37,628 bases of DNA from a virus (IMGVR_UViG_3300027892_001207:1-37628), one strand, 5' to 3'. Numbered from the stretch's first letter, positions 1,991-29,553 are shown. The notes: generated by a model not told the origin, from the letters alone. A program made the numbers and translations.

Positions 1991-3457
1991 ATGTCGCTAC
2001 GTATTAGAAGAGGTTCAGAAACCGAAAGAACAGCCATAAGGTTTGATCAAGGCGAGCTTGTATGGGTTCAAAGTACTACTACTAGCCGTCCCGCATATAA
2101 ACTATATGTAGGTGACGGAGTAACTAACGGCGGTAAGGATATTATCGAGTCAAGCGTTGGTAGTAAATTATTGTATAATGCAGGTACTGGGAGAATTGAT
2201 TTAGATTTGTCCAGCGGCAGTAGACTTAACACTGACGATATTGTCCAATTAAATGGTGCAAACAATCAATTTTTTACAGCAGAATTAGTACAAGATGTTG
2301 TAGGAGCAATGGTTGCCGGGGGTGCGAAAACCGGAATACAAGTTGTCTATCAAGATAACGGCACTGGCAACGGAGTATTAAATTTTACAGTAACAGGTGG
2401 AGGTGCCGGAACCGGTACTGGAATCGAACACTTATATGATGACCCGGCCCCACAATTAGGCGGCGATTTAAATCTCAATAACTTTAAAATTTCAGGTATC
2501 GGTGATATTGATATCGACGGTTATGCCATCATTACTGGAACATTAGCAGTTCCTGCAGGTATGAATTCTGATATTCCACTGAATGGATTTGACATCACTG
2601 GAGCAGGTAATATAACGATAGGTGGAGATGCATCATTCACCGGTAGTATATCTTCTCAGACAGGGCTAGGTGCTAATTTAGTATTAAATACTTACAACTT
2701 AACTGGTCTAGGAAATATTGATATAACTGGTAATTTATCAGTAAGTGGATTAGGTAAAAATTTAGATTTAAACACACATAATATTACCGGAACTGGTAAC
2801 ATTTCAAATACTGGAAACGTTGATGTTACTGGAACAATTAAAACAGCTATTGGTCTAGGTGGAGATTTAAGTCTTAATAACTTTGATATTACAGGAACTG
2901 GTGATGTCAACATAACCGGAGATGTCACAGCTACTAATATTATTTCAGATACTTTCACACCGGTACTAGTCGGCGGTGGTTTAAACTTAGAAGCAAGCAC
3001 ACTATTTCCAGTTAAAGTTTCTGGGCTTTCGTCGAATTCAAGCCCGATGATGATCGAATTAGCCGCATCCGGGGGAACAGTTGTAACTCCAACAGCGTTA
3101 AGTGCTGGTGATTTCATAAGTGGTGTTAAGATGACTGGCTACTACGGTGGTAACTATGTATTCGGTGCTGGTCTCATTACAAAATTTGACAATAGTGCAG
3201 ACTTTACTAAAACATTTCCAAAATCAACAATGTTTTTTGTTACTAATAACAACACAAATTCACAAGCGGGTTCAGCATCATTAGACGGCGACGGAGTATT
3301 TACTGCTAACTCTATTCGACCAGGAGTATATGCAACCTCAATTGCTCGAGATACTGCTATTCCTGTGCCAGCAAATGGCATGATGGTTTATATTACTGCC
3401 GGCAATGCATTACAATGCTACAGCGACGGTAGTTGGAAAACAGTAACATTGGTCTAA
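1991..3457 (+). CDS. tail fibre / virion fibre-like structural protein, 488 aa
   Basis: N-terminal IRRG...GELVW...KLYVGDGVTNGG resembles the Mtd_N-like fibre anchor. The centre has LGGDLxLN and TG[ND]xxx repeats. The C-terminus ARD...PANGMMVY...LQCYSDGSW is typical of phage fibre modules. Confidence 0.75.
   Translation: MSLRIRRGSETERTAIRFDQGELVWVQSTTTSRPAYKLYVGDGVTNGGKDIIESSVGSKLLYNAGTGRIDLDLSSGSRLNTDDIVQLNGANNQFFTAELVQDVVGAMVAGGAKTGIQVVYQDNGTGNGVLNFTVTGGGAGTGTGIEHLYDDPAPQLGGDLNLNNFKISGIGDIDIDGYAIITGTLAVPAGMNSDIPLNGFDITGAGNITIGGDASFTGSISSQTGLGANLVLNTYNLTGLGNIDITGNLSVSGLGKNLDLNTHNITGTGNISNTGNVDVTGTIKTAIGLGGDLSLNNFDITGTGDVNITGDVTATNIISDTFTPVLVGGGLNLEASTLFPVKVSGLSSNSSPMMIELAASGGTVVTPTALSAGDFISGVKMTGYYGGNYVFGAGLITKFDNSADFTKTFPKSTMFFVTNNNTNSQAGSASLDGDGVFTANSIRPGVYATSIARDTAIPVPANGMMVYITAGNALQCYSDGSWKTVTLV
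2453..2937 (+). repeat. degenerate protein-level repeats in the fibre gene
   Basis: Five units: LGGDLNLNNFKISGIGDIDIDG, DIPLNGFDITGAGNITIGG, LGANLVLNTYNLTGLGNIDITG, LGKNLDLNTHNITGTGNISNTG, LGGDLSLNNFDITGTGDVNITG. Confidence 0.75.
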
Positions 3458-4017
3458 GTCCATCTAGGATATTTAGATAACTCTTCAAAAAACTTATCGG
3501 GGTATAACTGCCAAACAGTTTGGTTAGTTCCCCGATAATTCATTTCCGTAACACGTTTCATCACTCCCTTCTTTTCCATTGCCGGCCCAAAAATATTATG
3601 AACACGGCGTTGTGTTCCCACACTGTTTTCGTTTGAGGTAATGTAAAGATTAGACTTAATTGGTGCCCATTGTATACAGGCTGGAATTAAAAACTGTGCT
3701 GTGGGATTTTGTTGCTGTGTAATAACGCTGATAGTGCGTAACGCACGGCCATATGGTCCGGGCAATTCATCTGTGAATACACAAGTACGTGCGGCAATGC
3801 GATATGCATCTTCTCCCATCTCGGGGAAACTATGTGCGCCTACACTGCCCACAGCTTTATTGTTGTAGTAAAGAATCCATACGCACCATTCTTTCTCTTT
3901 TGATAGACTATCTACTAACATCTTCTGGCTAGAATTATTTGTAAAACCTTTAGCTTCAGAAGTAGCATAAAACTCAGTTAAATCTAAATCATCAGACCAT
4001 CTTACCAAATTATACAT
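3454..4017 (-). CDS. putative GNAT-fold acyltransferase
   Basis: WCVWILYYNNKAVGSVG followed by YRIAARTCVF and a C-terminal YRGTNQTVWQL; GNAT-like strand pattern, weak match. Confidence 0.5.
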   Translation of the reverse strand: MYNLVRWSDDLDLTEFYATSEAKGFTNNSSQKMLVDSLSKEKEWCVWILYYNNKAVGSVGAHSFPEMGEDAYRIAARTCVFTDELPGPYGRALRTISVITQQQNPTAQFLIPACIQWAPIKSNLYITSNENSVGTQRRVHNIFGPAMEKKGVMKRVTEMNYRGTNQTVWQLYPDKFFEELSKYPRWT

Positions 4018-4735
4018 TGTTATGCCACTCGGCCCATGTTAAAGGTAATGCAGTACCTAGTGATTTAAATTGGACAACAAACATTTTTATATTTTTTCTA
4101 TCAGCAGACATGCCATAACCGTATTCGTCTGGCCATTTCTTTTTAAGTTGTTCATATGAATCTAAATTTGCAGTAAACCCTAATTGATTAAAAATTGTTT
4201 TTAAATAACCAATACTATAAAATACGCACAGGTATCTATTGTCAGTTATCCTGTTTGCCATAAATTTAAAATTGCTTGGATAAATTTCGGCAATTGGGTG
4301 ATTGTATTCTAATTCATGTAGCATATCAGGTGTTGCATAAGTCGATATAGTATCATGCATTATATGATTAAGGGGATTAACACTTTCAATCACTATATGA
4401 TTAGAAATTTTAGATAATTTATATAACACATCACTGCTAATTCCCCATATCATCCTTCCAAGAAAGACAGCATCAAATTTAAGATTGGGCTGTTTTAAAA
4501 ATTCTTCTATAGATGTTGTTATTACATTCACATCGGCATCGGGATAAGAAGTTTTTATATTGTCTAATGCAACTTCCACTCTTTGAGAATCTATATCAAT
4601 TCCTGTGTAGCTACTTGCTTGATTGCTCAGAACATACAAGCCAGCTTCTCCGTTAGCACACCCTACATCTAAAAAAGACTTTCCGGCTATTTCACTAGGC
4701 GATATCCATGCGTTAAAACGATCTATGTCATTCAT
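4010..4735 (-). CDS. class I SAM-dependent methyltransferase
   Basis: Motif I FLDVGCANG, then YTGIDID and KFDAVF. Confidence 0.8.
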   Translation of the reverse strand: MNDIDRFNAWISPSEIAGKSFLDVGCANGEAGLYVLSNQASSYTGIDIDSQRVEVALDNIKTSYPDADVNVITTSIEEFLKQPNLKFDAVFLGRMIWGISSDVLYKLSKISNHIVIESVNPLNHIMHDTISTYATPDMLHELEYNHPIAEIYPSNFKFMANRITDNRYLCVFYSIGYLKTIFNQLGFTANLDSYEQLKKKWPDEYGYGMSADRKNIKMFVVQFKSLGTALPLTWAEWHNNV

Positions 4736-5415
4736 AAATTTTTAACTTTTTCGATAAAGTCTGCAGGATAGTTTGTACTAAAACTAGCCCAACATAGTCG
4801 ATCCATTACTTCCCATGGTTGTGGTTTATCCCACTCAATACCCAATTTGTCTAAATGTTTACGTATTTCATCTTGCCTGGTAGAATAGATATGACTTTCA
4901 ACATCTTGTATACTAATGTTAGGTTCAGTATTTCTATAAGTAAAGAAATAGTTGATACTTTTTAATTTTCCGTCTATAACAAAATAACTACTGGGATGCA
5001 TACTATATTTGTGTAATCCTAAAATTTTATGGGCTCGGATGATGTTAAGCATTTGATCTTGCCAGTCGGGTAGTACTTTATCATAGTTTAACATATCGCA
5101 CCCCGATAGTTCCCAGAAGTCGGGGCCATCTATTTCTAAATATATCTTACGAGTGTCTAAATCTATTTTTTGAATAACAGGAACTAACTCTGGATGCCGA
5201 TTTCTCATTTGAGTTAGATAGTTTACTTCACGCAACCATTTTTCTTCCATCTTTGCGGGATCGACTACTTGATTTTGTCCCTTATGGTACTCGGTGTCAT
5301 TATAATACCATTGTACAAAAGTTTTTTGATCTTCAGAAATCAAACTAGTGTAGATAAGATTATTTCTACATAACCCGTGTTCGGGAACATTATTATAGTA
5401 ATAATTAAATTTCAT
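4732..5415 (-). CDS. protein-kinase-like fold protein with degenerate catalytic motifs
   Basis: REVNYL (helix C), LVPVI, IYLEIDG hinge; HKYSMHPSS in place of HxDxxxxN; INY in place of DFG. Paralog of 16609-17274. Confidence 0.55.
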   Translation of the reverse strand: MKFNYYYNNVPEHGLCRNNLIYTSLISEDQKTFVQWYYNDTEYHKGQNQVVDPAKMEEKWLREVNYLTQMRNRHPELVPVIQKIDLDTRKIYLEIDGPDFWELSGCDMLNYDKVLPDWQDQMLNIIRAHKILGLHKYSMHPSSYFVIDGKLKSINYFFTYRNTEPNISIQDVESHIYSTRQDEIRKHLDKLGIEWDKPQPWEVMDRLCWASFSTNYPADFIEKVKNL

Positions 5416-5450
5416 TTATTAGCCTTTCAAGTTTATTATTCCCGGTGAGA

Positions 5451-5465
5451 TATTTACCATAAATA
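5451..5465. promoter_or_regulatory. back-to-back divergent TAAATA motifs
   Basis: TAAATA on the minus strand (5451-5456) and ATAAATA on the plus strand (5459-5465), between two divergent operons. Confidence 0.6.
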
Positions 5466-5484
5466 TTGCGCGAGGAAAAAAATC

Positions 5485-6549
5485 ATGAAAATTACAAAAA
5501 TCCCAGGCTTGGGAAGATTTGGCATATTTGTCGATGGTGTAGATTTTGATAACATTACAGACGACGAATGGATGGAAATTGGTAAGCTCCACATGGAGAA
5601 TTTAGTCACTATTATTCGTGACTGTAACTTAACATGGGATCGAGAAATAGACTTTTGTAAAAAGTTTGGTGATACTCGATATGGAATAAGATATTTGCTT
5701 CTTAAAAAATATCAAGGCATGGAATGGAAAGAAATCGTTAAAGCAGCCATGCAAAATGATCCCCGCATTGATAACATAGATAAACAAAGATTACATAGTA
5801 TTTCACGTATGCAAGAACTTATGCCGGATGGCAGGCATGTTATGCGTGTAACTGGTAAAAAGGATGCTGATGGTAATCCGTTAGGTATGTTTGCAGAAGG
5901 TGAACTACTTTGGCACAGCAATGAAAGTGGGACATTAACATTTACTCCGGGTGTTGCGTTACTAGGTGCAGAAAATATGATCGGCTCCAGTACAGGCTTC
6001 TTAACAACACCGGACTATTATGAAAATGTAAGCAATGCATTTCGTAGCGAATTAGATGAAATGATCTTAATACATCGATTTACACCTGGCCGAATTAATC
6101 CGGGTCTACGTCAAGACCAAGACGAAGTAATGCATGCCAATATGTGTCCCGAGGATGATGTAGAAATTCCTATAGTCATGCGTAGTCCAGGAGGCATAGT
6201 AGGATTACACTATAGCACAAATACAATCTATAGTATCAAAGGGATGACTAAGGAAGAAAGCGATAGTGTGTTTGCAGAAATTGATAAAGAATTATTTGTG
6301 GACAAATATACATACGATCATCAATATCAAAGTAATAACGATTTTTGTTTATTTGATAACAGTATTACCTTGCATCGTCGATTGGGCGATGTTAAAGACA
6401 GACTTTGTTATCGCATACAGCACGACTATAGTAATTTACAAGGTGCTCCGTGGAAGCCTTATCTACAAGAATCTTTTATGTCTAAATACGCTGAAGAAAT
6501 GAAATACTACGTTGAATTAGCAGATATCAAAGATTTTAAATTACCTTAA
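5485..6549 (+). CDS. TauD/TfdA-family Fe(II)/2-oxoglutarate dioxygenase
   Basis: N-terminal GIFVDGVD, LWHSNE, and C-terminal FDNSITLHRR...RLCYR. Confidence 0.8.
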   Translation: MKITKIPGLGRFGIFVDGVDFDNITDDEWMEIGKLHMENLVTIIRDCNLTWDREIDFCKKFGDTRYGIRYLLLKKYQGMEWKEIVKAAMQNDPRIDNIDKQRLHSISRMQELMPDGRHVMRVTGKKDADGNPLGMFAEGELLWHSNESGTLTFTPGVALLGAENMIGSSTGFLTTPDYYENVSNAFRSELDEMILIHRFTPGRINPGLRQDQDEVMHANMCPEDDVEIPIVMRSPGGIVGLHYSTNTIYSIKGMTKEESDSVFAEIDKELFVDKYTYDHQYQSNNDFCLFDNSITLHRRLGDVKDRLCYRIQHDYSNLQGAPWKPYLQESFMSKYAEEMKYYVELADIKDFKLP

Positions 6550-8028
6550 ATGTTCAAATGCTTACTATTCAATGTTGCCAGCGGAACCAATCATGTTGGT
6601 AACGGCCGTAGTGTGGGTGTATACAGGATAGCGCATTATCTTAGAGAAAATAACTGGGACGCCGAAGTAATCGATTTTATTTCATCGTGGACCTTAGAAG
6701 AATTACGAGAATTAGCTAAATCTCGAATAGACAGCAATACTAAGTTTATCAGTTTTAGCCATATGTATTCTGTATGGTCAGATACATTAGAAGATTTTGC
6801 TTGCTGGTTGAAAGAAACATATCCAGATATTCCGTTACTCTCGGGCTCGGGAGTTGCACCACAGTTTAAATCTAATTATTTAGATTACTACATACAAGGG
6901 TTTGGAGAGCTTGCACTAATACAGTTGCTAGGTTGGATGTTTAGCAACGGAGAACGGCCAAGATTTAATCTATCTAGGGCAAACAATAAACCCTTGCTAT
7001 CGGCCAATGAACAATACCCTGCATTTCCAATGAAGAGTCTAAATGTAATTTATGAAGATAGAGATTTTATTCAGCCACACGAATGGCTGGGTATAGAGTT
7101 TGCTCGTGGATGTAAATTCCAATGCGATTTTTGTAACTTTCCTGTATTAGGAGTTAAAGGAGATTATAGCAGGGATGCAGATGACTTTGGGATACAAGTG
7201 AAGGATGCGTATGATCGATTTGGTGTTACTAATTATCTAGTAGCAGATGAAACATTCAATGATCGTACAGAGAAGATCACTAAGTTTGCCAATGTAGTAG
7301 AAGGGTTAAATTTTAATCCGTGGTTTACAGGATTTATACGTCCTGACTTGATTGTGAGTCGGTCGCGTGATAGAGAAGAACTATTACGGATGGGATTTTT
7401 AGGACACCATTACGGGGTTGAAAGTTTTAATCATGAGGCTGTAAAAAGTGTTGGCAAAGGTATGCATCCTGATAAAATCAAACAGGGAATACTAGATGTT
7501 AAACAGTATTTTGAAACACATGGCAGTAACCGTTATAGAACTTTATTAACATTTATATTAGGATTACCCGGAGAAACATTAGATGATCTAACCCATACAA
7601 CACAATGGTTGCTAGATAATTGGAAGGGGCAAGCGTGGACTCCGTTTGTCTTAGATATACCAATCGGAGAGTTAAACCGTATGAGTAAGATGAGTTTAGA
7701 TTATAGCAAATATGGTTACAGACCTTATACCGGGCCAACTAAGAATATAACTGTCCAGCAGAATCGAGTGTCTAATGAATTGCTGATATGGGAAAACGAT
7801 AACATGAATTATTATCAAGCATATGATGCATTTGAATTTATGTTAGAAAAGCGTAATGATGTTGCTAACGGGTTTACACTAGCACCTTGGGATTTAGCCA
7901 TGGTAGGATTACCCAGAACCCTAACAGAAAGGTTGTCTCTACACAATTCGTACACTAAGAATTCCGATGTGGATCACGTTAGAGAAGAGTTTGTCAACAA
8001 CTATAAGAATAAGAAATTTAACATATGA
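6550..8028 (+). CDS. cobalamin-binding-domain radical SAM enzyme (class B type)
   Basis: N-terminal Rossmann-like domain (EVIDF, DYYIQGFGE), ARGCKFQCDFC, ADETFN, GVESF, FILGLPGET. Confidence 0.85.
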   Translation: MFKCLLFNVASGTNHVGNGRSVGVYRIAHYLRENNWDAEVIDFISSWTLEELRELAKSRIDSNTKFISFSHMYSVWSDTLEDFACWLKETYPDIPLLSGSGVAPQFKSNYLDYYIQGFGELALIQLLGWMFSNGERPRFNLSRANNKPLLSANEQYPAFPMKSLNVIYEDRDFIQPHEWLGIEFARGCKFQCDFCNFPVLGVKGDYSRDADDFGIQVKDAYDRFGVTNYLVADETFNDRTEKITKFANVVEGLNFNPWFTGFIRPDLIVSRSRDREELLRMGFLGHHYGVESFNHEAVKSVGKGMHPDKIKQGILDVKQYFETHGSNRYRTLLTFILGLPGETLDDLTHTTQWLLDNWKGQAWTPFVLDIPIGELNRMSKMSLDYSKYGYRPYTGPTKNITVQQNRVSNELLIWENDNMNYYQAYDAFEFMLEKRNDVANGFTLAPWDLAMVGLPRTLTERLSLHNSYTKNSDVDHVREEFVNNYKNKKFNI

Positions 8029-9488
8029 ACAAGTGTTTGTTGTTTAACGTCGGTGGTGGAGGTATGCTTATGAGAAATTCAGGGGCATACAGAATCGCCA
8101 CCGTGCTAAGAGAAAATAATTGGGATACTGAAGTAATTGACTGGGTATCGTACTGGTCCCTAGATCAACTTAAACAATTATGTAAACAGCGCATAGATCA
8201 AGACGTTAAATTTATAGGATTCAGTTATCTGTTTGTTGATGAACCTATTAGTATTATTGAAGAGTTTGGCACATGGTTTAAATTAACTTTTCCTAGTATA
8301 AAAATTTTACTAGGTGCTCCTAATAAATGGAGATTTCCTAACAAATATGTCGATTACAACATACATGGCTATGGTGAACTTGCTTTATTAGAATTGTTAA
8401 AATATTTGTTTAGTAACGGAACTGCACCAAGATTTAATTTAATGACACACTCAGGAAAAAGTATATCTGCAAATGAGATGTATCCTAGCTATCCAATGGC
8501 TAGTTTACTGATCAAATATGAGAATAGAGACTTTGTTCAATCACACGAGTGGTTGGGAATCGAATTCTCTCGTGGGTGTAAGTTTGCTTGTGCATTTTGT
8601 AACTATCCGGTTATAGGTGTAAAAGGTGATCATACTAGAGATGCTGATGACTTTGAATATCATGTAAGAGATGCATACGATAGATTCGGTGTTACAAACT
8701 ATTATGTTGCCGACGAAACATTTAATGATCGCACAGAGAAGATTACTAAGTTTGCAGACGTAGTAGAACGATTACCATTTGACCCATTCTTTACAGCAAC
8801 ACTTCGTGCAGATTTGTTAATTAACAGACCAGCAGATAAAGAAGAATTACTACGGATGAATATGTTAGCTCAACTGTACGGTGTTGAAAGTTTTAATACT
8901 CCGTCGGCTAAGTCTATTGGTAAGGGAATGGATTCTACTCGTATGAAAGCAGGTCTCATTGACATTAGGAAATATTTTGAAACGCATGGAAGTAAGAGAT
9001 ATCGCGGAACTGTTAGTTTAATAGCAGGACTTCCCCACGAAACTGTTGATACACTTCGACAGTCAAAGCAATGGCTATTAGACTACTGGCAGGGCCATGC
9101 TTTTAATATACTGCCATTAGAAATCCCTATTAGCGAATACGATACGCCTTCAAAGATAGGGCTAGACTGGAAAAAGTACGGATATGAAGATGCATCAGAC
9201 GATCCTAAATTTATAGATTTAAAACAAAGGAATCTGATTACATCTCATAGATTACTAATTTGGAAGAACGAACATATGGATGTCGGTGTTGCACATGATT
9301 TATATAGAGAAATAGAAAGCATAAAAACTGAAGAAGGTAATGACTTTCGCATTAATAACTTTTCTATAGTACGATTAGGACTACCGGACGGATTAGATGA
9401 TCGATTAGCTGTAACCGAAAAACAAAAACCTCCTCCTGTACCTTATGATTTTTTAAATAGTTACATTAATAACAAATTGGATTTATGA
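8025..9488 (+). CDS. cobalamin-binding-domain radical SAM enzyme (paralog of 6550-8028)
   Basis: SRGCKFACAFC, ADETFNDRTEKITKFA (identical to the upstream gene), GVESF, LIAGLPHET. Confidence 0.85.
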   Translation: MNKCLLFNVGGGGMLMRNSGAYRIATVLRENNWDTEVIDWVSYWSLDQLKQLCKQRIDQDVKFIGFSYLFVDEPISIIEEFGTWFKLTFPSIKILLGAPNKWRFPNKYVDYNIHGYGELALLELLKYLFSNGTAPRFNLMTHSGKSISANEMYPSYPMASLLIKYENRDFVQSHEWLGIEFSRGCKFACAFCNYPVIGVKGDHTRDADDFEYHVRDAYDRFGVTNYYVADETFNDRTEKITKFADVVERLPFDPFFTATLRADLLINRPADKEELLRMNMLAQLYGVESFNTPSAKSIGKGMDSTRMKAGLIDIRKYFETHGSKRYRGTVSLIAGLPHETVDTLRQSKQWLLDYWQGHAFNILPLEIPISEYDTPSKIGLDWKKYGYEDASDDPKFIDLKQRNLITSHRLLIWKNEHMDVGVAHDLYREIESIKTEEGNDFRINNFSIVRLGLPDGLDDRLAVTEKQKPPPVPYDFLNSYINNKLDL

Positions 9489-21063: not shown

Positions 21064-21067
21064 GAAA

Positions 21068-21098
21068 TATTTATGTAGGTGTCGAGCATGGGTAAATA
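21068..21098. promoter_or_regulatory. divergent TAAATA motifs, each 4-5 nt before an ATG
   Basis: ATAAATA on the minus strand (21068-21074) before the ATG at 21063; TAAATA on the plus strand (21093-21098) before the ATG at 21104; no RBS on either side. Confidence 0.6.
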
Positions 21099-21103
21099 TT
21101 TCC

Positions 21104-21958
21104 ATGACACGTTATAAAATTGCACCTTCATATTCAGCAGACTATTTGGAAATAGACAGGCCAAGCCCGCTAACAGATAACCAAATTGAGCAACTAATAC
21201 AAGACGTGTTAAGTGGTAATACAGATAAAGACATTAGCGATCAAATATACATTAATTTTAAAGAAGAAATGACAACTTGGATTGAGTCTAGCAAGCTCAA
21301 TACCTTAATCGGATTGAATTCGTTTGATCGGGTTGATATTATAAACGGATGTACACAATTTATTGACAACGTGTATATACAAGGACAGCCACAGGTATTA
21401 GTTGGAGATTATAGGTACCACGATCGATTAGGCAATTGGGGGACGCGGCCCGGGATTTTACGAGAAAATATACCATTAATTATTGCCATGCCGTTTCCTA
21501 GCACCGGTGCAGTACATAATCGAATGACGGAGATATTAGATGAAGCGAGAGACAAAGGTATTGATGTGCATGTGGATGGCGCTTGGCTTACTTGCTGTTG
21601 CGCAATTAACTTTGATGTATCTCATCCTGCAATCAAGTCTATAGGTATAAGTTTGAGTAAAGGGTTAGGACTTGGTTGGAATCGAATTGGCTTACGTTGG
21701 ACTAGACAACCACATGCTGATAGTGTTACAATAATGAATGACTTCCACATGAATAATCGTGCATTAGTGTTGATCGGACTGCACTTCTTACGTAATTTAG
21801 ATCCCGACTATCTTTGGAAGACGCACGGTGATCGATACTACAAAGTTTGTAAAGATTTTAATCTTACTCCTACTAACAGTATCTATCTAGCATTACGTGA
21901 TGGGCAACCTGTGGGAGTTAGTCCCCTTATAAGGTATTTAGAAAATGCATCTGCATAA
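21104..21958 (+). CDS. PLP-dependent enzyme, fold type I
   Basis: VHVDGAW and SIGISLSKGLGLG..RIG (PLP-binding Asp and Schiff-base Lys). The true start is probably 21104 (MTRYKIA). Confidence 0.75.
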   Translation: MTRYKIAPSYSADYLEIDRPSPLTDNQIEQLIQDVLSGNTDKDISDQIYINFKEEMTTWIESSKLNTLIGLNSFDRVDIINGCTQFIDNVYIQGQPQVLVGDYRYHDRLGNWGTRPGILRENIPLIIAMPFPSTGAVHNRMTEILDEARDKGIDVHVDGAWLTCCCAINFDVSHPAIKSIGISLSKGLGLGWNRIGLRWTRQPHADSVTIMNDFHMNNRALVLIGLHFLRNLDPDYLWKTHGDRYYKVCKDFNLTPTNSIYLALRDGQPVGVSPLIRYLENASA

Positions 21959-22688
21959 CATAGACGGAGTAAACATTCCGTTTGATAAAGACTGGAATAG
22001 TATTGCTATTAGTGTAAGTGGCGGCGCAGACAGTGCATTACTAGCATATCTAATTTGTTCTATTGCGCCTGACAATTTCCACATTCATATCGTCAGCCAT
22101 ACCCGTATGTGGAAGACCCGTCCTTGGCAACAGTATGATTCGTTAAATGTATTTCAATACTTAGTACATACATTTCCCACACTTACTTTTGAAAGGCATA
22201 CTAGTTTTATTGCACCGGATTTAGAATACGGTAATATAGGTCCTAGCTTAACAGACGAGTATGGAAAGAAAGTTAGCGGGGATAATATACAACAACGTGC
22301 ATTTGCAGAATATATTTGTTATCATAGGAATGTTGATGCTTATTACAATGCTGTTACACATAACCCACGATTGGGATTGTTCAATGGTATGCATGAAAGA
22401 GATGTCGAACCGTCAGATGAAAACAAACATCTTGAATATATGATACACATGGGAAAGGTTGCGAGCCATCCGTTTAGATTTGTAGACAAGTCCTGGGTTA
22501 TAAAACAGTATAGAAGGTTAGAGATTGAAGATTTGCTTGATATTACTAGAAGCTGTGAAGGTGAGTTTGATAGCATTGATTACAAAACATATAAACCACA
22601 ACAACTTGTCCCCATATGTGGAGAGTGCTTTTGGTGCAAAGAAAGGGAGTGGGCCATTAATGAAAATAAACAACCTAGACCCGAGTAA
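21945..22688 (+). CDS. QueC-like PP-loop ATP pyrophosphatase
   Basis: IAISVSGGADSA and TRSCEG...CGECFWCKER. Confidence 0.75.
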   Translation: MHLHNIDGVNIPFDKDWNSIAISVSGGADSALLAYLICSIAPDNFHIHIVSHTRMWKTRPWQQYDSLNVFQYLVHTFPTLTFERHTSFIAPDLEYGNIGPSLTDEYGKKVSGDNIQQRAFAEYICYHRNVDAYYNAVTHNPRLGLFNGMHERDVEPSDENKHLEYMIHMGKVASHPFRFVDKSWVIKQYRRLEIEDLLDITRSCEGEFDSIDYKTYKPQQLVPICGECFWCKEREWAINENKQPRPE

Positions 22689-23469
22689 GTATAACCGGTT
22701 CTTTGCATTCGGATGTAGCTTTACCAGTTACAAATGGCTGACTTGGGCTGACATTATAGGTAAGGATATCGAAGTATATGAAAACTGGGGAGAACAAGGT
22801 GGCGGAAATCATTTCATCTTTAATAGCGTAGTTGAAGCAGATGCACGGCATAACTTTACTAAAAACGATTTAGTAATAATCTTCTGGAGTACTAAAGAAC
22901 GAGAAGATAGGTACCTAAATAACAAGTGGATACATGCTACCGCTGGTACAATTGAATCGGAATACGGCAAAGAATGGATTGACAAGTTTTACTTTGACAC
23001 ACGGTCATTCTTGATTAGAGATCTTGCTTATATGAAATCAATACAGTCTATTTTAAAATCTAGAGATTGTGATTGGGCTAACTTATGCTGGAATGAATTC
23101 TTTAATAATACTAGTATGCGAGAAACATTTACTAAAACAACTAATAAAAAGTCATTAGTAAAAATGTGGAGAGATAATTGCAAAGAAGTTTACAGTGGTA
23201 ATAGTATTCCTAATTTTTTTGATGATCAAGACGTCATACAATTATATCAAGATGTGTTTACAAATATAACTAGCGTATATAGATGGTTCGATGAAGAACA
23301 GAATATTAACACAACTAACCGACTCGACGATCACCCTACTCCTACAGAGGCATTATTATTTTTAGATTGGATTTGGCCCGATAACACAATTAGTGACAGT
23401 ACTAGGCAGTACGCAAAACAATGGGATTGTACAGAAACAATCCAACGACTCCGAATAAGTAGACTATGA
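22660..23469 (+). CDS. SGNH-hydrolase-like protein
   Basis: FAFGCSFT (block I), NWGEQGGGN, C-terminal DDHPT. Start set at MKINNLD. Confidence 0.6.
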   Translation: MKINNLDPSKYNRFFAFGCSFTSYKWLTWADIIGKDIEVYENWGEQGGGNHFIFNSVVEADARHNFTKNDLVIIFWSTKEREDRYLNNKWIHATAGTIESEYGKEWIDKFYFDTRSFLIRDLAYMKSIQSILKSRDCDWANLCWNEFFNNTSMRETFTKTTNKKSLVKMWRDNCKEVYSGNSIPNFFDDQDVIQLYQDVFTNITSVYRWFDEEQNINTTNRLDDHPTPTEALLFLDWIWPDNTISDSTRQYAKQWDCTETIQRLRISRL

Positions 23470-24725
23470 CAAGTAAAACATTTTGTATGCATCCTTTCAC
23501 AGGATTAGCTACTAGAGAAGACGGCGCCATACAGGCTTGCTGTCGTAGTCACCCTATTGGTTGGATACAAGATAACACCTTAGAAGAAATTTGGAACGGT
23601 ACCCCCATGCGGTTAATACGTAAAGAAGTACTTAACGGTGGCCGGCCTCCTGAATGTGAACCGTGTTTTAGATTAGAAGATCAAGGTGTTGAGTCTCTGC
23701 GCCAAAGACATATTGCAGGTAAAATTCCAGAAGCTCGTATTAATCTATATCCCAATGCGGTAGCCGCAATGAATGAAGATTATACAATGCCGTTTGAGAT
23801 TCCTACTATGGAACTTAAACTAAACAACTTATGTAATCTTAAGTGTCGTATGTGTCACCCCGGCGATAGTACTAGCTGGAATGACTGGAGTGAAGTTAAA
23901 GAATTCTATAAAGGTGAAGGTCAAGTTATATTTGATATTGTTGAAGAACATAATTTAGAACGTAAACCTTACTTAGATAAATTTGACAACAATCCTAACT
24001 GGTGGAATAGTTTTGGAAAATTATTGCCACATTTTAGACGAGTGGAGTTTGCAGGAGGTGAACCTCTAATGGATCCACAACATTATCGCATACTAGACAT
24101 GTTAAAACCATACGGTACTAACATAGAGATTAAGTATGCTACTAATGGAACAACGCTAGGAATTAGCAAAGGAAGAACTATACATGAATATTGGCCTCAT
24201 TTTAGATCAGTTGCCGTTAATGTCAGCATTGATGGCATTTACGATGTTTATAATTACATTCGTGGCAATGGGGATTTTGTTGTCGTTGAAGAAAACATCA
24301 GAGATATACAGAGAATATCTAACATCAGCCGGATAGTAGGTGCGGTTGCTGTACAAGTAAGTAACGCTCTTATACTTGATAAAATGATTGAGCATTTCTT
24401 AGACAAATTAGGAATTGTATTTTATACAAATATGGTGCAGTATCCTAACGTACTAAGCATACAAGTATTACCCGATGAACTTAAAGCATTAACTATTATA
24501 AAATTAAAAGCGGTACGGACTCTCGTACCAACTTTTAAATTAGTAAAAGAACACCCACTGCTAGAAGAACTGACATACAAACAAATTGACGGTATTATTA
24601 ATTTTATATCAGCAAAAGACTTAACACATTTGTGGAATGACTGCGTAGAATTTAATCACAAACTTGATGTGACACGCAATCAAAGTTTCGAAACAGTTAC
24701 ACCTGAGTTTAAACAATATGTTTAA
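23466..24725 (+). CDS. radical SAM enzyme with N-terminal Twitch/SPASM-like Cys domain
   Basis: FCMHPF...ACC...CEPC, then NNLCNLKCRMC, FAGGEP, YATNG, VSIDG. Confidence 0.9.
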   Translation: MTSKTFCMHPFTGLATREDGAIQACCRSHPIGWIQDNTLEEIWNGTPMRLIRKEVLNGGRPPECEPCFRLEDQGVESLRQRHIAGKIPEARINLYPNAVAAMNEDYTMPFEIPTMELKLNNLCNLKCRMCHPGDSTSWNDWSEVKEFYKGEGQVIFDIVEEHNLERKPYLDKFDNNPNWWNSFGKLLPHFRRVEFAGGEPLMDPQHYRILDMLKPYGTNIEIKYATNGTTLGISKGRTIHEYWPHFRSVAVNVSIDGIYDVYNYIRGNGDFVVVEENIRDIQRISNISRIVGAVAVQVSNALILDKMIEHFLDKLGIVFYTNMVQYPNVLSIQVLPDELKALTIIKLKAVRTLVPTFKLVKEHPLLEELTYKQIDGIINFISAKDLTHLWNDCVEFNHKLDVTRNQSFETVTPEFKQYV

Positions 24726-25608
24726 AGTAACTAGCCGCTGGCCTCATCAAGATAGTATCAAGATTGAATGGAATCTTGGCAAGCGTTGTAATTACGACTG
24801 TAGTTACTGCCCTAGTAGTATACACGACAATACTAGCCCGCATCGAGCATGGATGAATTTGCAAGACACAGTTGATCGATTAATGACATTAGGCAAACCT
24901 ATACGCATTAGTTTTACAGGTGGCGAGCCATGTGTAAATCCAGAGTTTTCTAAATTAGTAAAATACTGCAAACATGTTGGTGTCAGTTGGGTTAGTGTAA
25001 CAACTAATGGAACATTGCCATATGAATTTTATTCAGCATTAGAAGCAGATCAAATTGTATTCAGCATACACTTAGAGTTTGATTGGAGGCGTGTATTTAA
25101 TACGGTAGAAAGTGTTGTTGATCTAACAAATAAGAAAGTTATAGCACAAATTATGGCGCACCATGATCATATGGATGCGGTGATGCAATTACGTGCTAAA
25201 TGTCTACTAGCAGAAATTCCCAGTACCGTTCGTCGAATTAGGTGGACTGAAGGCGACCATGATTTGTTTGACGATATGCGTTATCATCCAGACGACCTAA
25301 CTTGGTTAAAAGAACAAGATGCTACAGTGCAGGGTAACTGTGTTATAGACAGCTCTCGAATTATGCATGCCAATGATGTTATCAAATTGCACCTGAACAA
25401 ATATAAAGGATGGACTTGCAATGCAGGCATAGAAAGTCTGATGATAAACTGGGACGGAGATGTACATAGAGCGACTTGCAGAGTCGGTGGTAGTCTTGGC
25501 AACATATATGCAGGAACATTTTCAATCCCTACAGAACCTATTATATGCGATAGGAATTTCTGTACCTGCGCGGCAGACATTCCGCTAACTAAGATTTCAC
25601 CTTTGTAG
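24718..25608 (+). CDS. radical SAM enzyme with C-terminal Twitch/SPASM-like domain
   Basis: GKRCNYDCSYC, FTGGEP, TTNG, WTCNAG...ATC...ICDRNFCTC. Confidence 0.9.
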   Translation: MFKVTSRWPHQDSIKIEWNLGKRCNYDCSYCPSSIHDNTSPHRAWMNLQDTVDRLMTLGKPIRISFTGGEPCVNPEFSKLVKYCKHVGVSWVSVTTNGTLPYEFYSALEADQIVFSIHLEFDWRRVFNTVESVVDLTNKKVIAQIMAHHDHMDAVMQLRAKCLLAEIPSTVRRIRWTEGDHDLFDDMRYHPDDLTWLKEQDATVQGNCVIDSSRIMHANDVIKLHLNKYKGWTCNAGIESLMINWDGDVHRATCRVGGSLGNIYAGTFSIPTEPIICDRNFCTCAADIPLTKISPL

Positions 25609-26575
25609 CATGAGTGTCGGGTTGACAAATACATAGATTATTTGTACAACTAATATCACTCGGCGGACTCATAGTAAACACCGGTGAAAATATGTTTATA
25701 GATGTTTTAAACATCGATAGCCCACAACTGGCACGTAAATCCCCCGATGCATCTATAGCAATAGATTCTGTTCCAATTTTACAAGTCCAACCTTTAAAAT
25801 TATTCCAATCATTTAATAAGATAGTATGTGATTGTGCAACTTGTGCAGTATCGTCGTCGAATAAAACCACGCTATCATGCAGACTAAGATTGGCCATTCT
25901 AGGTAATAGCCAATCAGATGTTGGAATACGTTTTAATGCGTTGTTTATATACTCGTGTTGTAGAGGAGTATATACATCCGTTCCTTTATTAGGAGCGTCT
26001 ACTATCGTCTTAGCTTGTATGTACCAAGACTGTTTACTTTGTAACATATAGTTTATATTGTCTACACATTTATCCCAATGTTGTGCATCCATTAATCCTA
26101 ACGCAGTAACATCTACTCCTGCTGAAAATAATAAATCAGCAACTTCAATAAAATGATCGATATCTACATATTCATAATGGCAGCTTAATACTACACGATC
26201 AAGATATTTAGAATTATTTGACCACCACGTAGTAGTCCTCGAACCATTACTTACTATCGTAATGTATATAGATGTGCCGTACGTTTCTTTAAGCTCTTTA
26301 CAAAATTGATCTAATTGAGGCCACAATGTAGGTTCACCTCCCCCTGATACAAATAACCGAATTTTTCGTTTGTTATGATTGTCTTTGTAATACTTAAACA
26401 ATATTTTAAAATTATTAATAATTAAATCTAAATTTTTAGGATATCTATACTTTGCGTCGTGCGACCCTGGAAAACAGTAAGAACAGTCGTAGTTACAAAT
26501 ATCAGTAGGAAAAAATCTTACTTGTAACACTTCACTGTCTTGGGTAGAAATAACCTTTATTGGGATTCGTTTCAT
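25589..26575 (-). CDS. radical SAM enzyme with C-terminal Twitch/SPASM-like domain
   Basis: TDICNYDCSYC, GGGEPT, VSNGS, WTCKIG...SC...CTNNLCIC. Start set at 26575 from the ATGA overlap. Confidence 0.9.
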   Translation of the reverse strand: MKRIPIKVISTQDSEVLQVRFFPTDICNYDCSYCFPGSHDAKYRYPKNLDLIINNFKILFKYYKDNHNKRKIRLFVSGGGEPTLWPQLDQFCKELKETYGTSIYITIVSNGSRTTTWWSNNSKYLDRVVLSCHYEYVDIDHFIEVADLLFSAGVDVTALGLMDAQHWDKCVDNINYMLQSKQSWYIQAKTIVDAPNKGTDVYTPLQHEYINNALKRIPTSDWLLPRMANLSLHDSVVLFDDDTAQVAQSHTILLNDWNNFKGWTCKIGTESIAIDASGDLRASCGLSMFKTSINIFSPVFTMSPPSDISCTNNLCICQPDTHATKVKS

Positions 26576-27162
26576 TTTGTTCCTATGATCATCCAACGTG
26601 TATACAGTTGAGTTTTTAAACTACCCGACCATAATTCTTTTAGATGACTTTGATTTTTAAATTCTTCTAAGCTACGGGCAATTCTAATATGCTCTGCTAT
26701 GGCGTAATCGTTACTTTGAACTACAATAATACTGTCTGTTGATAGCCTAGACAACCATATGTCATATTGTTCTTGTGTGATATGTTCACAGCTGGTATTG
26801 ATGATAACATCGCCGTTAACTGGAACTGCACACATGTCTCCTGTTATAGCTTTAAATTTACCGTCTTGTTCTTCTATTTTATTCATCATAGTAGCAACAT
26901 GCTGGCACAGTGGATCAATGTCTACGCTGGCAATATAGCGGGCGGATATTTTACTTTGGAATATCATGCTGGCTAGTACACCAACCCAACCTCCGTGTAT
27001 TTCTATGCGACTAGGTTTGGTTACAAATGGCTCTAAGTTATCTATAAGCCATTCTTTGCTTTTCATCTGGCCACTCCAAAACGCATCAAGTGTACGCATT
27101 GGGCTGTTGCTTTCGCGGATAGCATTCATCCAAAAATGTAAGTGTTCTGTATCTATTTTCAT
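26572..27162 (-). CDS. putative class I SAM-dependent methyltransferase
   Basis: IHGGWVG glycine-rich loop, SVDID, GDM, INTSCEH. Confidence 0.65.
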   Translation of the reverse strand: MKIDTEHLHFWMNAIRESNSPMRTLDAFWSGQMKSKEWLIDNLEPFVTKPSRIEIHGGWVGVLASMIFQSKISARYIASVDIDPLCQHVATMMNKIEEQDGKFKAITGDMCAVPVNGDVIINTSCEHITQEQYDIWLSRLSTDSIIVVQSNDYAIAEHIRIARSLEEFKNQSHLKELWSGSLKTQLYTRWMIIGTK

Positions 27163-28427
27163 ATTAAGTCCTGCATCTCTGGGAATGTTTTTATAAAGGA
27201 GGTTTGTCTTCTTCGATCGTGCTCATTAACAAATTTTAAAAATTCTGTTAGATTAGTTTGTTCAGTAGTAACAAATAATTCTAGTATTCGTTCTAGTTCA
27301 TTAATTTCATTTGCAGTAAATCGGTTTCTTTTCATGTAAACAATTTGACTATTAATATAGTCACTGTATGTTTTAGGCAATACCCATATTGATAGAAAAT
27401 TAGGATTACGCAAGTAACTAGTTGATAAACTCACTCGACTGAACCACTTTCGACCTTTGAGCGTATTAATGTCTTTTAAAAACAGTTCGTATGTAGTAAC
27501 ACTAAATGCATTATAAGTTGCCATTATATCTAGTTTAACATCTGGTATTGAATTTAATATTTTATAACAATTATCGAGCCAAGTATCGTACTGTAGTCCA
27601 TTCCGTGCATATTCAGCCGCATGGCTGTATGCTTCACAGCTCGTGTGGATTGTTAATTTTTTAACTTTTAATTGTTTTGCTTTGCTAATAAATTTATCCA
27701 ACACATGGCAATCGGCCATTAAGTTACTGTTGATACTAAGCTCTAGATTAGTATTAGGATTACTAATAATATAGTCTAACACTTTGAAAGTGTTCTTGCT
27801 TAGTAGCGGCTCTCCGCCTGTTATTCTAAAAGTATGTAAGCTAGGATATAGATCAGGCCACCACTGCCAAAACGCATCAATATAAGGATTGTGTTCACGG
27901 TTTGGAATAATATAAGTTTGTTGGTAATGATTTGTAGAATCATCTGGCCATGGACCGTATCGATTAATCTCATCCATCCATTTACTGCTATTTGTAGGAC
28001 CGCAATAACTACATTTTAAATTACATACATTGTCAAAACTAATTTCAAGATATTTCGGATTACTTCCGTTAGCACCTTGTGTTAAGATTTCTTTGAAGAA
28101 CGGGCGTGACCAATTTGTAAAACTCTTTGTTATGCGATCACTTAAACTATTACTAGAGTCTTCAACTTTCCAACAATAATCACATTCTGTAGGACGAATA
28201 CCTTCTAGCATAAGCTGACGTTGTTGTTTTTTATATTTTGTATTATGTAATGCACTTACATCAATTTTGATTTCATCTACGGGTATATGATGTGGACCAG
28301 GATGATGACAACTGTGTGTCATACCGGAACCTAAGTAAATGTTAGATTGTGTCCATTTAGCCAAACAAAGACTAGGACTAATAGTGTCTAGTTTTTTCTT
28401 GTGCTGTAATCGGAACCATTTCCACAT
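27159..28427 (-). CDS. radical SAM enzyme with N-terminal Twitch-like Cys domain
   Basis: LCLAKW...HSCHH...ECDYC, then DNVCNLKCSYC, ITGGEP, INSNL. Confidence 0.9.
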   Translation of the reverse strand: MWKWFRLQHKKKLDTISPSLCLAKWTQSNIYLGSGMTHSCHHPGPHHIPVDEIKIDVSALHNTKYKKQQRQLMLEGIRPTECDYCWKVEDSSNSLSDRITKSFTNWSRPFFKEILTQGANGSNPKYLEISFDNVCNLKCSYCGPTNSSKWMDEINRYGPWPDDSTNHYQQTYIIPNREHNPYIDAFWQWWPDLYPSLHTFRITGGEPLLSKNTFKVLDYIISNPNTNLELSINSNLMADCHVLDKFISKAKQLKVKKLTIHTSCEAYSHAAEYARNGLQYDTWLDNCYKILNSIPDVKLDIMATYNAFSVTTYELFLKDINTLKGRKWFSRVSLSTSYLRNPNFLSIWVLPKTYSDYINSQIVYMKRNRFTANEINELERILELFVTTEQTNLTEFLKFVNEHDRRRQTSFIKTFPEMQDLI

Positions 28428-29401
28428 TATAATTTACACTTTGGTATTTTGCTGTCTGCCGAGCTAACACAGCTAGGTGTGATACAGCGAGTAGGTTCCT
28501 TAAATAATTCAAAACTATCTAATGTGCCTAATGGTACATCATGACAACTATAACTTCTTTTAACGTCATTACCTCTTATTATAACACTTTGATAGCCAGC
28601 ATTACAAGTCCAATTGGTAAATTTATTAAATCCAAAAGCATTGAACCTTTCTGCTTGGTCAAACAAATGTTCGGTACCATCTGCTTCGTATAGGGCAATT
28701 TGGTAGGTGTCTTCACCGTTGGCACGTTGCGGAAACCCTTCACGCATCTTGTGTATCATATCTTCTGTATAACCTTCAACAACCGCACTCGCTGTAGGAT
28801 CGCTTTGTGGCTTGAGTGTTACATTAATTCCACGGGCATGGAATCGTTCCATACGAGCATACAACTCATCGAACTTCTCAGGTACCATTACTTGGTTTAT
28901 TGTAACGTGTACCAGTTCGTACATCAACTGTAAACATTTATCACCAAACTCTTGTTCTTTGGCAAACTCATCGTGGAATGATGCTGTGATACTACGGCGC
29001 TGTAATAGCGCAGTATTGGCACACCAAGTGTTCCACCATTTGCTACCAGGACTTAGGTTAGTGGTCATATGGATACTTTGATAAGGACTTTCGATTTCGT
29101 CCAAGTGTTTTACCAAATCTGGAAACTGTTTATACGCTGTTGGTTCGCCGCCACTGAAGCTCCAATGAAATTCGGTAAACCCATTGGCTCGTGCTTGACG
29201 CTTAATCTCATCCACTGTAGCTGTATACACTTCCAGCGGTTGATGATCCACTTTATCACTACGAGCATATGGCCAGCAGTAACTACAATTATAATTACAA
29301 AATCTACCCAAAATCCAACTGGTAGAAAATAATGGTTTGGCTAGCATGGTGCGTTGCCCAAACCGTACAATATTTTGGAAAGGAATGGTTGAAAAGCTCA
29401 T
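28427..29401 (-). CDS. radical SAM enzyme with C-terminal Twitch-like domain
   Basis: GRFCNYNCSYC, FSGGEPT, MTTN, WTCNAG...YSC...CITPSC..AD. Confidence 0.9.
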   Translation of the reverse strand: MSFSTIPFQNIVRFGQRTMLAKPLFSTSWILGRFCNYNCSYCWPYARSDKVDHQPLEVYTATVDEIKRQARANGFTEFHWSFSGGEPTAYKQFPDLVKHLDEIESPYQSIHMTTNLSPGSKWWNTWCANTALLQRRSITASFHDEFAKEQEFGDKCLQLMYELVHVTINQVMVPEKFDELYARMERFHARGINVTLKPQSDPTASAVVEGYTEDMIHKMREGFPQRANGEDTYQIALYEADGTEHLFDQAERFNAFGFNKFTNWTCNAGYQSVIIRGNDVKRSYSCHDVPLGTLDSFELFKEPTRCITPSCVSSADSKIPKCKL

Positions 29402-29435: not shown

Positions 29436-29553
29436 GTAGACGTGAGTGGAACATGGTATACCTCCTCCTAGTAAGCTGACCCCCAGCTGAACGGAGGGAA
29501 CTGGCCTTGCCCTTAGGGTGGCTTTGTAGGTTCGAATCCTACCGTCTACACCA
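29436..29553 (+). ncRNA. tRNA-like RNA (118 nt) with a type II (Leu-like) body and a non-canonical anticodon arm
   Basis: 7-bp acceptor stem GTAGACG/CGTCTAC with A73 and encoded CCA; T arm GTAGG-TTCGAAT-CCTAC; D region GTGGAACATGGTATAC; long variable arm with CC-TTAG-GG. The anticodon arm is an extended helix with no 7-nt loop. Confidence 0.8.

What the first reader, a model, noticed from the sequence alone, without database searches (positions are those of the whole stretch)
3454..29401. 26-kb phage-encoded tailoring cluster: 11 radical SAM enzymes, about 9 Fe/2OG oxygenases and accessory transferases
Seen: 28 contiguous, mostly stop/start-coupled genes, nearly all predicted modifying enzymes (11 CxxxCxxC radical SAM, about 9 oxygenase/cupin, 2 QueC-like, 2 kinase-fold, 2 methyltransferases, GNAT, SDR, PLP, SGNH). 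I recognised no scaffold-building enzyme (NRPS, PKS, glycosyltransferase), transporter or precursor peptide. Known: this enzyme mix is typical of RiPP maturation (SPASM/Twitch and B12 radical SAMs, Asp/Asn hydroxylases, methyltransferases) and partly of phage DNA base hypermodification. Inference: the cluster heavily modifies an existing macromolecule (virion protein, DNA base or RNA) and may be an undescribed phage hypermodification system.
Basis: partly seen in the sequence, partly recalled or inferred. Interest (0 to 1): 0.92.

Follow-up and report, generated by a model that had tools for sequence, protein, structure and literature searches.

The report
Phage radical-SAM sugar-tailoring gene island
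A large freshwater phage carries, beside a likely fibre gene, 30 back-to-back enzyme genes (11 radical SAM, 9 oxygenase-type) whose relatives sit next to, or are fused with, a predicted sugar transferase, so they likely rework a sugar decoration that would sit on the virus particle; the product is untested.

Summary
The cluster is real: 30 genes (not 28), 11 radical SAM and 9 oxygenase-fold, in five units, each behind a T4 late-type TAAATA motif. It lies between a fibre gene and an anticodon-less tRNA-like RNA. It is a variable island of T4-like jumbo phages (73 gene orders in 80 loci).

The missing scaffold enzyme turns up in relatives. A divergent GT2-like glycosyltransferase ('B4') lies beside g19 orthologues in Bdellovibrionota (17 of 32 loci, once fused), sits directly at g30 in some phages, and in others lies in a fibre-linked operon elsewhere. 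Best reading (about 0.5): late, soluble enzymes tailor a phage-built glycan on virion proteins, with the transferases likely acting in trans. Product and acceptor are untested.

DNA modification is less likely: a relative has separate deazaguanine genes. No peptide precursor fits between the genes. The tRNA-like RNA is a neighbour, not a part.

Radical-SAM-rich phage modules are in print (CP220, pelagimyophages), and this scan has reported such islands (105 notes match) and this RNA type on other DNA. New variant of a known kind; interest 0.58.

The parts
1991..3457 (+). Fibre-like virion protein (left boundary, candidate acceptor); Gly/Thr/Asn/Ser-rich
   Evidence: Homologues hit Pfam Mtd_N; median 35% identity to homologues; TAAATA at -53; present in 21 of 29 g1 loci
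3454..4017 (-). g1, single-domain GNAT fold
   Evidence: Model pLDDT 90; best Z 12.8, rmsd 3.0, 155 aligned, to acyl-CoA GNATs
4010..4735 (-). g2, class I SAM methyltransferase
   Evidence: Pfam Methyltransf_31 E 8e-9
4732..5415 (-). g3, kinase-like fold without the catalytic Asp
   Evidence: Model pLDDT 92.6; Z about 12 to IRAK3 pseudokinase and Rio1; alignment
5416..5484 (.). Divergent late-type promoters (TAAATA on both strands)
5485..6549 (+). g4, TauD-type oxygenase
   Evidence: PF02668 E 5e-15; phrog_24590
6550..9488 (+). g5 (6550-8028) and g6 (8025-9488), radical SAM enzymes closest to B12-dependent families
   Evidence: PF04055; TIGR04072 54 and 52 bits against cut-off 360
9485..10552 (+). 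g7, Zn-ribbon radical SAM, distant from Tes/TrsS
   Evidence: PF23545 + PF04055; NF045702 66.6 against 450
10533..14252 (+). g8, g9, g11, g12, g13 (AspH-like oxygenases; g12 13153-13740 lacks the metal triad) and g10 (12106-12663, SDR)
14236..21063 (-). g21 (19978-21063) and g14 (14236-15324) radical SAM; g19 (17944-19359) N-twitch radical SAM; g20, g18, g15 oxygenases; g17 kinase-like; g16 QueC-like PP-loop
   Evidence: g19 is orthologous to a B4-fused enzyme
21064..21103 (.). Divergent late-type promoters (TAAATA at -10 and -11)
21104..25608 (+). g22 PLP-type (21104-21958), g23 QueC-like (21945-22688), g24 SGNH-like (22660-23469), g25 N-twitch radical SAM (23466-24725), g26 radical SAM (24718-25608)
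   Evidence: g22 and g24 by motif and weak homologue hits only
25589..29401 (-). g30 (28427-29401) and g27 (25589-26596) radical SAM; g29 (27159-28427) N-twitch radical SAM; g28 (26572-27162) methyltransferase-like
   Evidence: g29 groups with fibre-operon enzymes including that of RsoM2USA; TAAATA at -12
29436..29553 (+). Anticodon-less tRNA-Leu-like RNA (right boundary; a neighbour, likely not part of the pathway), behind a sigma70-type promoter
   Evidence: missed by ARAGORN defaults and Rfam

Best explanation
This is a variable island of 30 soluble-looking enzyme genes behind late-type promoters that likely tailors a sugar decoration, which phage glycosyltransferases probably encoded elsewhere in the genome would build on virion proteins such as the fibres. 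Shown: gene content, promoter motif, fibre neighbour, and the link of the g19/g21/g28/g30 core to a GT2-like transferase (B4) in bacteria and in related phages. Inferred: B4 and two further GT-A-like proteins of the fibre operon attach the glycan. Twitch-type radical SAM enzymes would oxidise, epimerise or deoxygenate sugar carbons; B12-type enzymes would C-methylate. PLP, GNAT, SGNH, PP-loop and methyltransferase enzymes would add amino, acyl, amide and methyl groups, and the Fe/2OG enzymes would hydroxylate. The reaction types are recalled by analogy to aminoglycoside and nucleoside-sugar tailoring, not from a call. Gene gain and shuffling would diversify the surface.
For: Late-type motif at 6 of 6 island and fibre starts against 1 of 11 other starts; in relative G006, 14 of 17 structural against 1 of 17 replication or nucleotide genes, and G006 has a late sigma factor. 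Of 32 Bdellovibrionota loci with a g19 orthologue, 28 have g21, 27 g30, 17 g28, 17 B4, and 23 B4 or another GT2. L343 is a 722-aa B4-g19 fusion in the g19 clade, support 1.0. In 151 genomes, g19 orthologues and g30 occur in the same 5, B4 in 6, with 4 shared (p 7e-5 without the centre genome, 1.6e-3 without both pre-selected genomes). B4 passes Pfam GT2 in 6 of 8 double-domain members scanned. B4 lies directly at g30 in G009, L060, L142, L146 and L158. G001, G004 and G006 share a B4 operon behind the baseplate and tail-fibre genes with 0, 4 and 5 radical SAM genes. RsoM2USA has B4 - N-twitch - B4 - g28 near the tail sheath gene. K566 interleaves four N-twitch-like enzymes with two GT8 and a GT4-like gene. 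g26's nearest solved structures act on sugars or nucleosides (viperin, cytosylglucuronate decarboxylase; weak).
Against: The window has no glycosyltransferase and ends before any tail operon, so B4 is not shown for this phage. Island and B4 operon in trans in one genome is shown only for G006; G004 (53% complete) has the B4 operon but no g30 match. B4's GT call is modest: 7 of the 8 members scanned were pre-selected for a GT2 label (7 of the top 120), hhalign gave only 3%, and there was no PDB hit. The two 'GT8-like' partners are unconfirmed. 9 of 32 bacterial loci show no GT in the flank. The phage-specific core g1, g3, g8, g15, g17 has no homologue in those bacterial loci, so it may act on something else. 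In G006 the g3/g8 starts lack the exact motif. No glycan or acceptor has been observed.
Confidence: 0.5

Rival explanations
1. The same sugar chemistry, but aimed at the host surface (LPS, capsule or host glycoprotein) to block rival phages.
For: This is the printed guess for pelagimyophage and cyanophage islands (PMC7029224, PMC7824862) and partly for K566 (PMC12028318). The bacterial versions sit among GT2, carbamoyltransferase and asparagine-synthase-like genes; G006 carries other sugar genes.
Against: Late-type promoters and tight linkage to fibre genes; no membrane protein, flippase or polymerase among the 30.
Confidence: 0.17
2. Direct side-chain modification of fibre or other virion proteins (RiPP-like chemistry on a large protein), mainly by the phage-only g1/g3/g8/g15/g17/g18 module.
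For: AspH-like oxygenases, a single GNAT and kinase-like folds are protein-modifying types. This module is highly conserved in phage loci (65-80 of 80) and absent or nearly so from the bacterial loci. It can be true together with the best explanation.
Against: The radical SAM core tracks with a GT2-like enzyme; SPASM and RiPP maturase models score far below cut-off; AspH-family members also act on lipid A (recalled).
Confidence: 0.13
3. Synthesis of a small molecule (aminoglycoside-like, nucleoside analogue or cofactor) used against the host or rival phages.
For: The enzyme mix resembles secondary-metabolite tailoring; Iyer et al. offer this for a cyanophage cluster (PMC7824862); weak viperin matches. 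Related islands add halogenase, amidinotransferase-like and AMP-binding genes.
Against: 73 different gene orders in 80 loci with free gain and loss fit a decorated surface better than one product; no transporter; viperin scores 35-52 against cut-off 180.
Confidence: 0.1
4. DNA base hypermodification.
For: QueC-like, PLP, GNAT, radical SAM and 2OG enzymes occur in DNA pathways, and Mu Mom is a late GNAT (both recalled). A relative has FolE, QueD and QueE but no QueC was seen near them.
Against: Those deazaguanine genes lie outside the island without the late motif within 60 nt. No PF00303 hit in 5 of 5 relatives, one 94% complete. No TET, HMUDK or aGPT family hit. QueC 26.9 bits against 150. 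G006 still avoids palindromes (mean rho 0.81 against 1.0). G001 lacks N-twitch genes and g30 yet keeps the deazaguanine genes.
Confidence: 0.06
5. The flanking anticodon-less tRNA-like RNA is the substrate or an aminoacyl donor for the island.
For: It lies head-to-head with g30 in 70 of 80 g30 loci, and g30 is the upstream neighbour in 89 of 120 RNA-selected loci. A73 in 90 of 90 copies; the anticodon arm is dispensable for leucylation (PMC9976931).
Against: Present in G001, which has no N-twitch gene or g30; 13-15 kb from the island in G002 and G003. Only ordinary tRNAs match in RsoM2USA and G009, and only weak tRNA-sized matches in K566, Mosig and 5 Bdellovibrionota genomes. It has a sigma70-type promoter, not a late one; g1 is a single GNAT, not a Fem or L/F-type double domain.
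Confidence: 0.04

Closest known systems
NCBIfam NF033640 N_Twi_rSAM (twitch domain-containing radical SAM protein)
   Same: g19, g25 and g29 are members by cut-off.
   Different: The family has no close solved relative (best PDB hit SkfB, E 1.6e-4) and I found no assigned reaction; here it comes with 8 other radical SAM enzymes and 9 oxygenases.
Radical SAM modules of Campylobacter phages CP220/CPt10 (PMC2853527, passages read)
   Same: 11-12 radical SAM genes per genome, five of them in an interchangeable 10-12 gene module with an amidinotransferase; function unknown.
   Different: No g19 match in those genomes at E 1e-5; the module here is three times larger, oxygenase-rich and fibre-linked.
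Host recognition cluster of pelagimyophages (PMC7029224, passages) and the Mosig EXVC030M island
   Same: Hypervariable island beside fibre genes with radical SAM cassettes, AspH, TauD, GNAT and methyltransferases; Mosig has a g28 homologue (29%).
   Different: Those islands hold the glycosyltransferases and are read as host O-chain modifiers; this one has none in cis and lies in a different jumbo lineage.
Mycobacteriophage virion glycosylation (Freeman et al. 2023, seen only as cited in PMC12363180; paper not held)
   Same: Phage glycosyltransferases decorate capsid and tail proteins, which is what this likely works like.
   Different: No radical SAM or oxygenase tailoring is mentioned in the passages seen; glycosylation has not been shown for this lineage.
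Class II tRNA-Leu (for the flanking RNA)
   Same: 7-bp acceptor, A73, CCA, D-loop GG, long variable arm, T arm; the best non-self matches are Leu tRNAs.
   Different: The first arm is 12-42 nt instead of 17, with a 3-6 nt end loop in 85 of 90 copies, so it has no anticodon loop.

Membership tests
NF033640 N_Twi_rSAM | Score over 170 bits with N-terminal twitch domain before the radical SAM core | tested here: met
   g19 405, g25 313, g29 324 bits; SPASM hit at the N-terminus of g19 and g25
RiPP maturation cluster | Short precursor peptide gene in or beside the cluster | tested here: not met
   27 of 29 junctions overlap or abut; gaps of 69 and 40 nt. Nested alternative-frame ORFs were not tested.
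RiPP maturation cluster | Named SPASM or peptide maturase over its cut-off; RRE/PqqD domain | tested here: not met
   Best RiPP-type models 27-46 bits against cut-offs of 268-625; no PqqD hit
7-deazaguanine DNA modification | QueC orthologue with FolE, QueD, QueE and DpdA in the locus | tested here: not met
   g16 26.9 bits against 150; FolE, QueD and QueE lie outside the island in G006; DpdA not identified
Thymidine or cytosine hypermodification (5hmU/5hmC based) | Hydroxymethylase or TET/JBP, plus 5-HMUDK and aGPT transferase | tested here: not met
   No such family hit in the window; PF00303 0 of 5 relatives, control 10 of 14; a divergent enzyme could be missed
Prokaryotic viperin | NF038283 over 180 bits | tested here: not met
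   g26 51.9, g27 50.3, g30 34.9; PADLOC pVip matches cover only the N-terminal part
Tetraether synthase Tes | NF045702 over 450 bits | tested here: not met
   g7 66.6 bits, 355 aa
Virion glycosylation system | Phage-encoded glycosyltransferase linked to structural genes | tested here: inconclusive
   Met in relatives G001, G004, G006 and RsoM2USA; the window is a fragment without it
Virion glycosylation system | Glycans demonstrated on virion proteins | not testable with these tools
   Needs mass spectrometry
tRNA-dependent aminoacyl transferase (Fem, L/F type) for g1 | Tandem GNAT domains; structural match to Fem or L/F transferase | tested here: inconclusive
   187-aa single domain; the top 50 rows are single GNATs
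Decoding tRNA-Leu (flanking RNA) | 5-bp anticodon stem with 7-nt loop | tested here: not met
   A 7-nt loop in 1 of 90 copies; UUCG cap in 16

The most novel reading that the evidence does not exclude
These jumbo phages run a two-site surface-coat system: a conserved glycosyltransferase operon behind the tail fibres lays down a glycan, and a separate, fast-shuffling island of up to 30 radical SAM, oxygenase and transfer enzymes edits it in trans into strain-specific, aminoglycoside-like sugars, while a phage-only GNAT / pseudokinase / AspH module modifies the carrier protein itself. That would be a phage 'serotype' system built on untested radical chemistry.
Probability: 0.3. Interest if true: 0.85.

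Novelty: new variant of a known kind. Interest (0 to 1): 0.58.

Why it matters
Radical-SAM-rich modules in phages have been noted since 2010 without a substrate. The link to one GT2-like partner (adjacent, fused, co-occurring) gives a testable substrate class for a family with thousands of members (5584 hits for g25) and no close structure. If right, abundant freshwater jumbo phages carry chemically elaborate, variable coats that could govern host recognition or stability, and the islands are a source of new sugar-editing enzymes. The score is held down because the kind of island is in print, it is common in this scan, and the product is unknown.

Tried and rejected
A single-protein scan of genome contigs with g25 found nothing; a closer g19 alignment did. 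PDB sequence searches with the B4 and g8 profiles and with the 536-aa gene near the G006 polymerase gave only chance hits, so my DpdA guess for that gene is unconfirmed. hhalign did not confirm F315/F316 as GT8 or g28 as a methyltransferase. The SGNH profile match for g24 is circular, because a g24 homologue seeded it. Fem and L/F transferases were not among the top fold matches of g1, which does not exclude them. Five B4-bearing phage fragments (27-62% complete) had no g30 match, and G010 and G011 (35% and 32%) had no B4; as fragments these show nothing. Rfam found nothing in the window; relaxed ARAGORN output was mostly noise. Single-sequence folding of the RNA was barely better than shuffles (z -0.5 to -2.1); its support is covariation. 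The RNA as a pathway component was rejected (see rivals). The 40-residue peptide noted before TauD in another genome cannot fit in the 69-nt gap before g4. RNA-library contigs cannot rank genes, so depth was not used. No complex prediction of g19 with B4 was obtained, so that question is open. Literature searches with no relevant hit for this island or RNA. The host was not identified.


Full report
Observation. The stretch 3454-29401 holds 30 genes, not 28. Eleven have CxxxCxxC and a radical SAM hit; g19, g25 and g29 are members of NF033640. Nine have an oxygenase fold: TauD g4, seven AspH-like genes and g15, with g12 lacking its metal triad. The rest are two QueC-like PP-loop proteins, two kinase-fold proteins without the catalytic Asp, two methyltransferases, a GNAT, an SDR, and PLP- and SGNH-type proteins; g22, g24 and g28 rest on motifs and weak hits. 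All look soluble. 27 of 29 junctions overlap or abut, which leaves no room for a precursor peptide.

What carries it. Relatives with the island have a T4-type gp23 capsid gene (2 of 5 fragments), a late sigma factor and genomes near 350 kb (G006 is 282 kb at 80% complete; G001 345 kb at 94%). G006's capsid protein is 66-72% identical to those of Phosso, PA5oct-like and GAP32 phages. Exact-match contigs occur in four freshwater RNA libraries of four studies, one covering all 30 bins of both halves; this shows presence in those libraries, not transcription. The host is unknown.

Anatomy. The island has five units. TAAATA lies within 60 nt of all five starts and of the fibre gene, against 1 of 11 other starts. 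In 211 divergent gaps from 80 related loci it occurs on the + strand in 137 and on the - strand in 107, against about 4% of random windows. In G006 it marks 14 of 17 structural genes and 1 of 17 replication or nucleotide genes, by my own gene labels; G006's g3/g8 starts lack the exact motif. Late expression is therefore inferred. On the left is a fibre-like gene whose homologues carry Mtd_N. It is present in 21 of 29 g1 loci; five of the eight misses have under 3.2 kb of flank. It is far more variable than the enzymes. On the right is a tRNA-like RNA.

Conservation. In the best 80 of 163 g8 loci, g1, g3, g15 and g17 occur in 70-76, g18 in 65, and g7 and g25 in 62; these loci include near-duplicates. 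They show 73 gene orders and 1-8 radical SAM genes per 20 kb, and swap in halogenase, aminotransferase, epimerase, sulfotransferase and more oxygenases.

The missing scaffold enzyme. An earlier scan note pointed to Bdellovibrio-type bacteria, and I tested it. A g19 alignment found 78 genome loci. I counted the 32 with a g19 orthologue in Bdellovibrionota-type records (one is titled only 'bacterium'), leaving out three short contigs binned to other groups. g21 is present in 28, g30 in 27, g28 in 17, and a family I call B4 in 17; 23 have B4 or another GT2. L343 fuses B4 to g19 and falls in the g19 clade with support 1.0. In a sample of 151 genomes of that phylum, g19 orthologues and g30 share the same 5 genomes, B4 is in 6, and 4 overlap. 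B4 has a DxD motif, an Atlas cluster automatically named GT2-like, and Pfam GT2 over the cut-off in 6 of 8 double-domain members, 7 of which were chosen for that label; profile comparison is only weakly positive.

B4 in phages. It lies directly before g30 in G009, L060, L142, L146 and L158. In G001, G004 and G006 two B4 genes and two further DxD proteins form an operon behind the baseplate and tail-fibre genes, followed by 0, 4 and 5 radical SAM genes. All 50 of 80 B4 loci with at least 5 kb upstream have the fibre genes and both partners, but these are 85-100% identical to G006 and not independent. G006 holds both this operon and the island, about 90 kb apart. Cultured RsoM2USA has B4 - N-twitch - B4 - g28 near its tail sheath gene, and the window's g29 groups with that enzyme and also lies beside g28. 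K566 mixes four N-twitch-like enzymes with GT8 genes. That the transferases persist without the radical SAM genes (G001) fits a base glycan with optional tailoring.

Mechanism. Most likely, fibre-operon transferases glycosylate virion proteins late in infection and the island enzymes edit the sugars, before or after transfer. The gene links are shown. The acceptor, the sugar, each reaction and the presence of B4 in this particular phage are inferred; the reaction types come from recalled aminoglycoside and nucleoside pathways. The phage-only module g1, g3, g8, g15, g17 has no homologue in the bacterial loci and remains unexplained; it may modify the carrier protein.

Rivals. Host-surface glycan modification is the printed guess for similar islands, but there are no membrane components here. 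A small molecule is possible. DNA modification is less likely: FolE, QueD and QueE lie elsewhere without the late motif, no thymidylate-synthase-family gene was found in five relatives, and palindromes are still avoided. A late, Mom-like route (recalled) is not excluded.

The flanking RNA. It keeps a tRNA-Leu frame with strong covariation, but the anticodon arm is a variable hairpin. It faces g30 in 70 of 80 loci; five loci end too soon, two have an oxygenase there and three have B4. It also occurs in G001, which lacks g30 and N-twitch genes, and no full copy was found in three cultured carriers or five bacterial genomes with N-twitch genes. It is a landmark beside the island, and the scan has described the type before.

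Literature. I read passages only (term searches) of PMC2853527, PMC7029224, PMC7824862, PMC8504454, PMC12028318, PMC12191111, PMC12363180, PMC13282480, PMC9976931, PMC4201824 and PMC7609411. Freeman et al. 2023 was not held. Searches found no paper on this island, on N-twitch enzymes with glycosyltransferases in phages, or on this RNA; subscription journals are mostly outside the library. I read no supplements; those of PMC7824862 (S5), PMC12028318 (Table S8) and PMC8504454 may annotate these genes.

Verdict. The feature is real and striking, but it is a large, transferase-free variant of a known, uncharacterised kind of phage island, which this scan has met many times (105 notes in at least 94 genomes match my words). 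Interest 0.58; 0.85 if the two-site coat model proves right.

Noticed in passing
window 29436-29553 (+): Anticodon-less tRNA-Leu-like RNA: 90 distinct full copies of 96-119 nt, all with A73 and CCA, 88 with a perfect 7-bp acceptor; 14 of 28 pairs change on both sides; about 320 viral stretches match one motif. Function unknown; earlier scan notes describe the type.
   Followed up: yes
window 4732-5415 and 16609-17274: Two kinase-fold paralogues lack the catalytic Asp across the aligned family yet are among the most conserved island genes (74 and 76 of 80 loci); pseudokinase or unusual ligase.
   Followed up: partly
window 13153-13740 and 19356-19985: g12 is an AspH-like protein without the metal triad; g20 has no homologue in the fetched loci other than an identical copy.
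   Followed up: partly
window 31-222: End of a gene cut by the contig edge, probably DUF2828-like (recalled); contigs of relatives here are very deep in RNA libraries, which cannot be read as a level.
   Followed up: no
window 30656-30874: Phage-encoded translation initiation factor IF-1.
   Followed up: no
G006 157-168 kb (L318-L319): QueE, FolE and a 536-aa gene shared with PA5oct-like phages (43%) lie next to the DNA polymerase, QueD elsewhere; no QueC seen there.
   Followed up: partly
L194, L229, L236, L241, L245, L253: Alternative cargo at the island site: DctP and TctC binding proteins, desaturase, fatty-acid hydroxylase, GARS-like ATP-grasp, sulfotransferase, AMP-binding enzyme.
   Followed up: no
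G006 whole record: ACGCGT, AGCGCT, CGCGCG and GCGCGC are absent; CGCG and GTAC at rho 0.41.
   Followed up: no
L353, L359, L374: Short contigs binned as Thermoplasmata, Planctomycetota and Bacteroidetes hold g19 at 43-72% identity; possibly misbinned phage DNA; left out of the bacterial counts.
   Followed up: no
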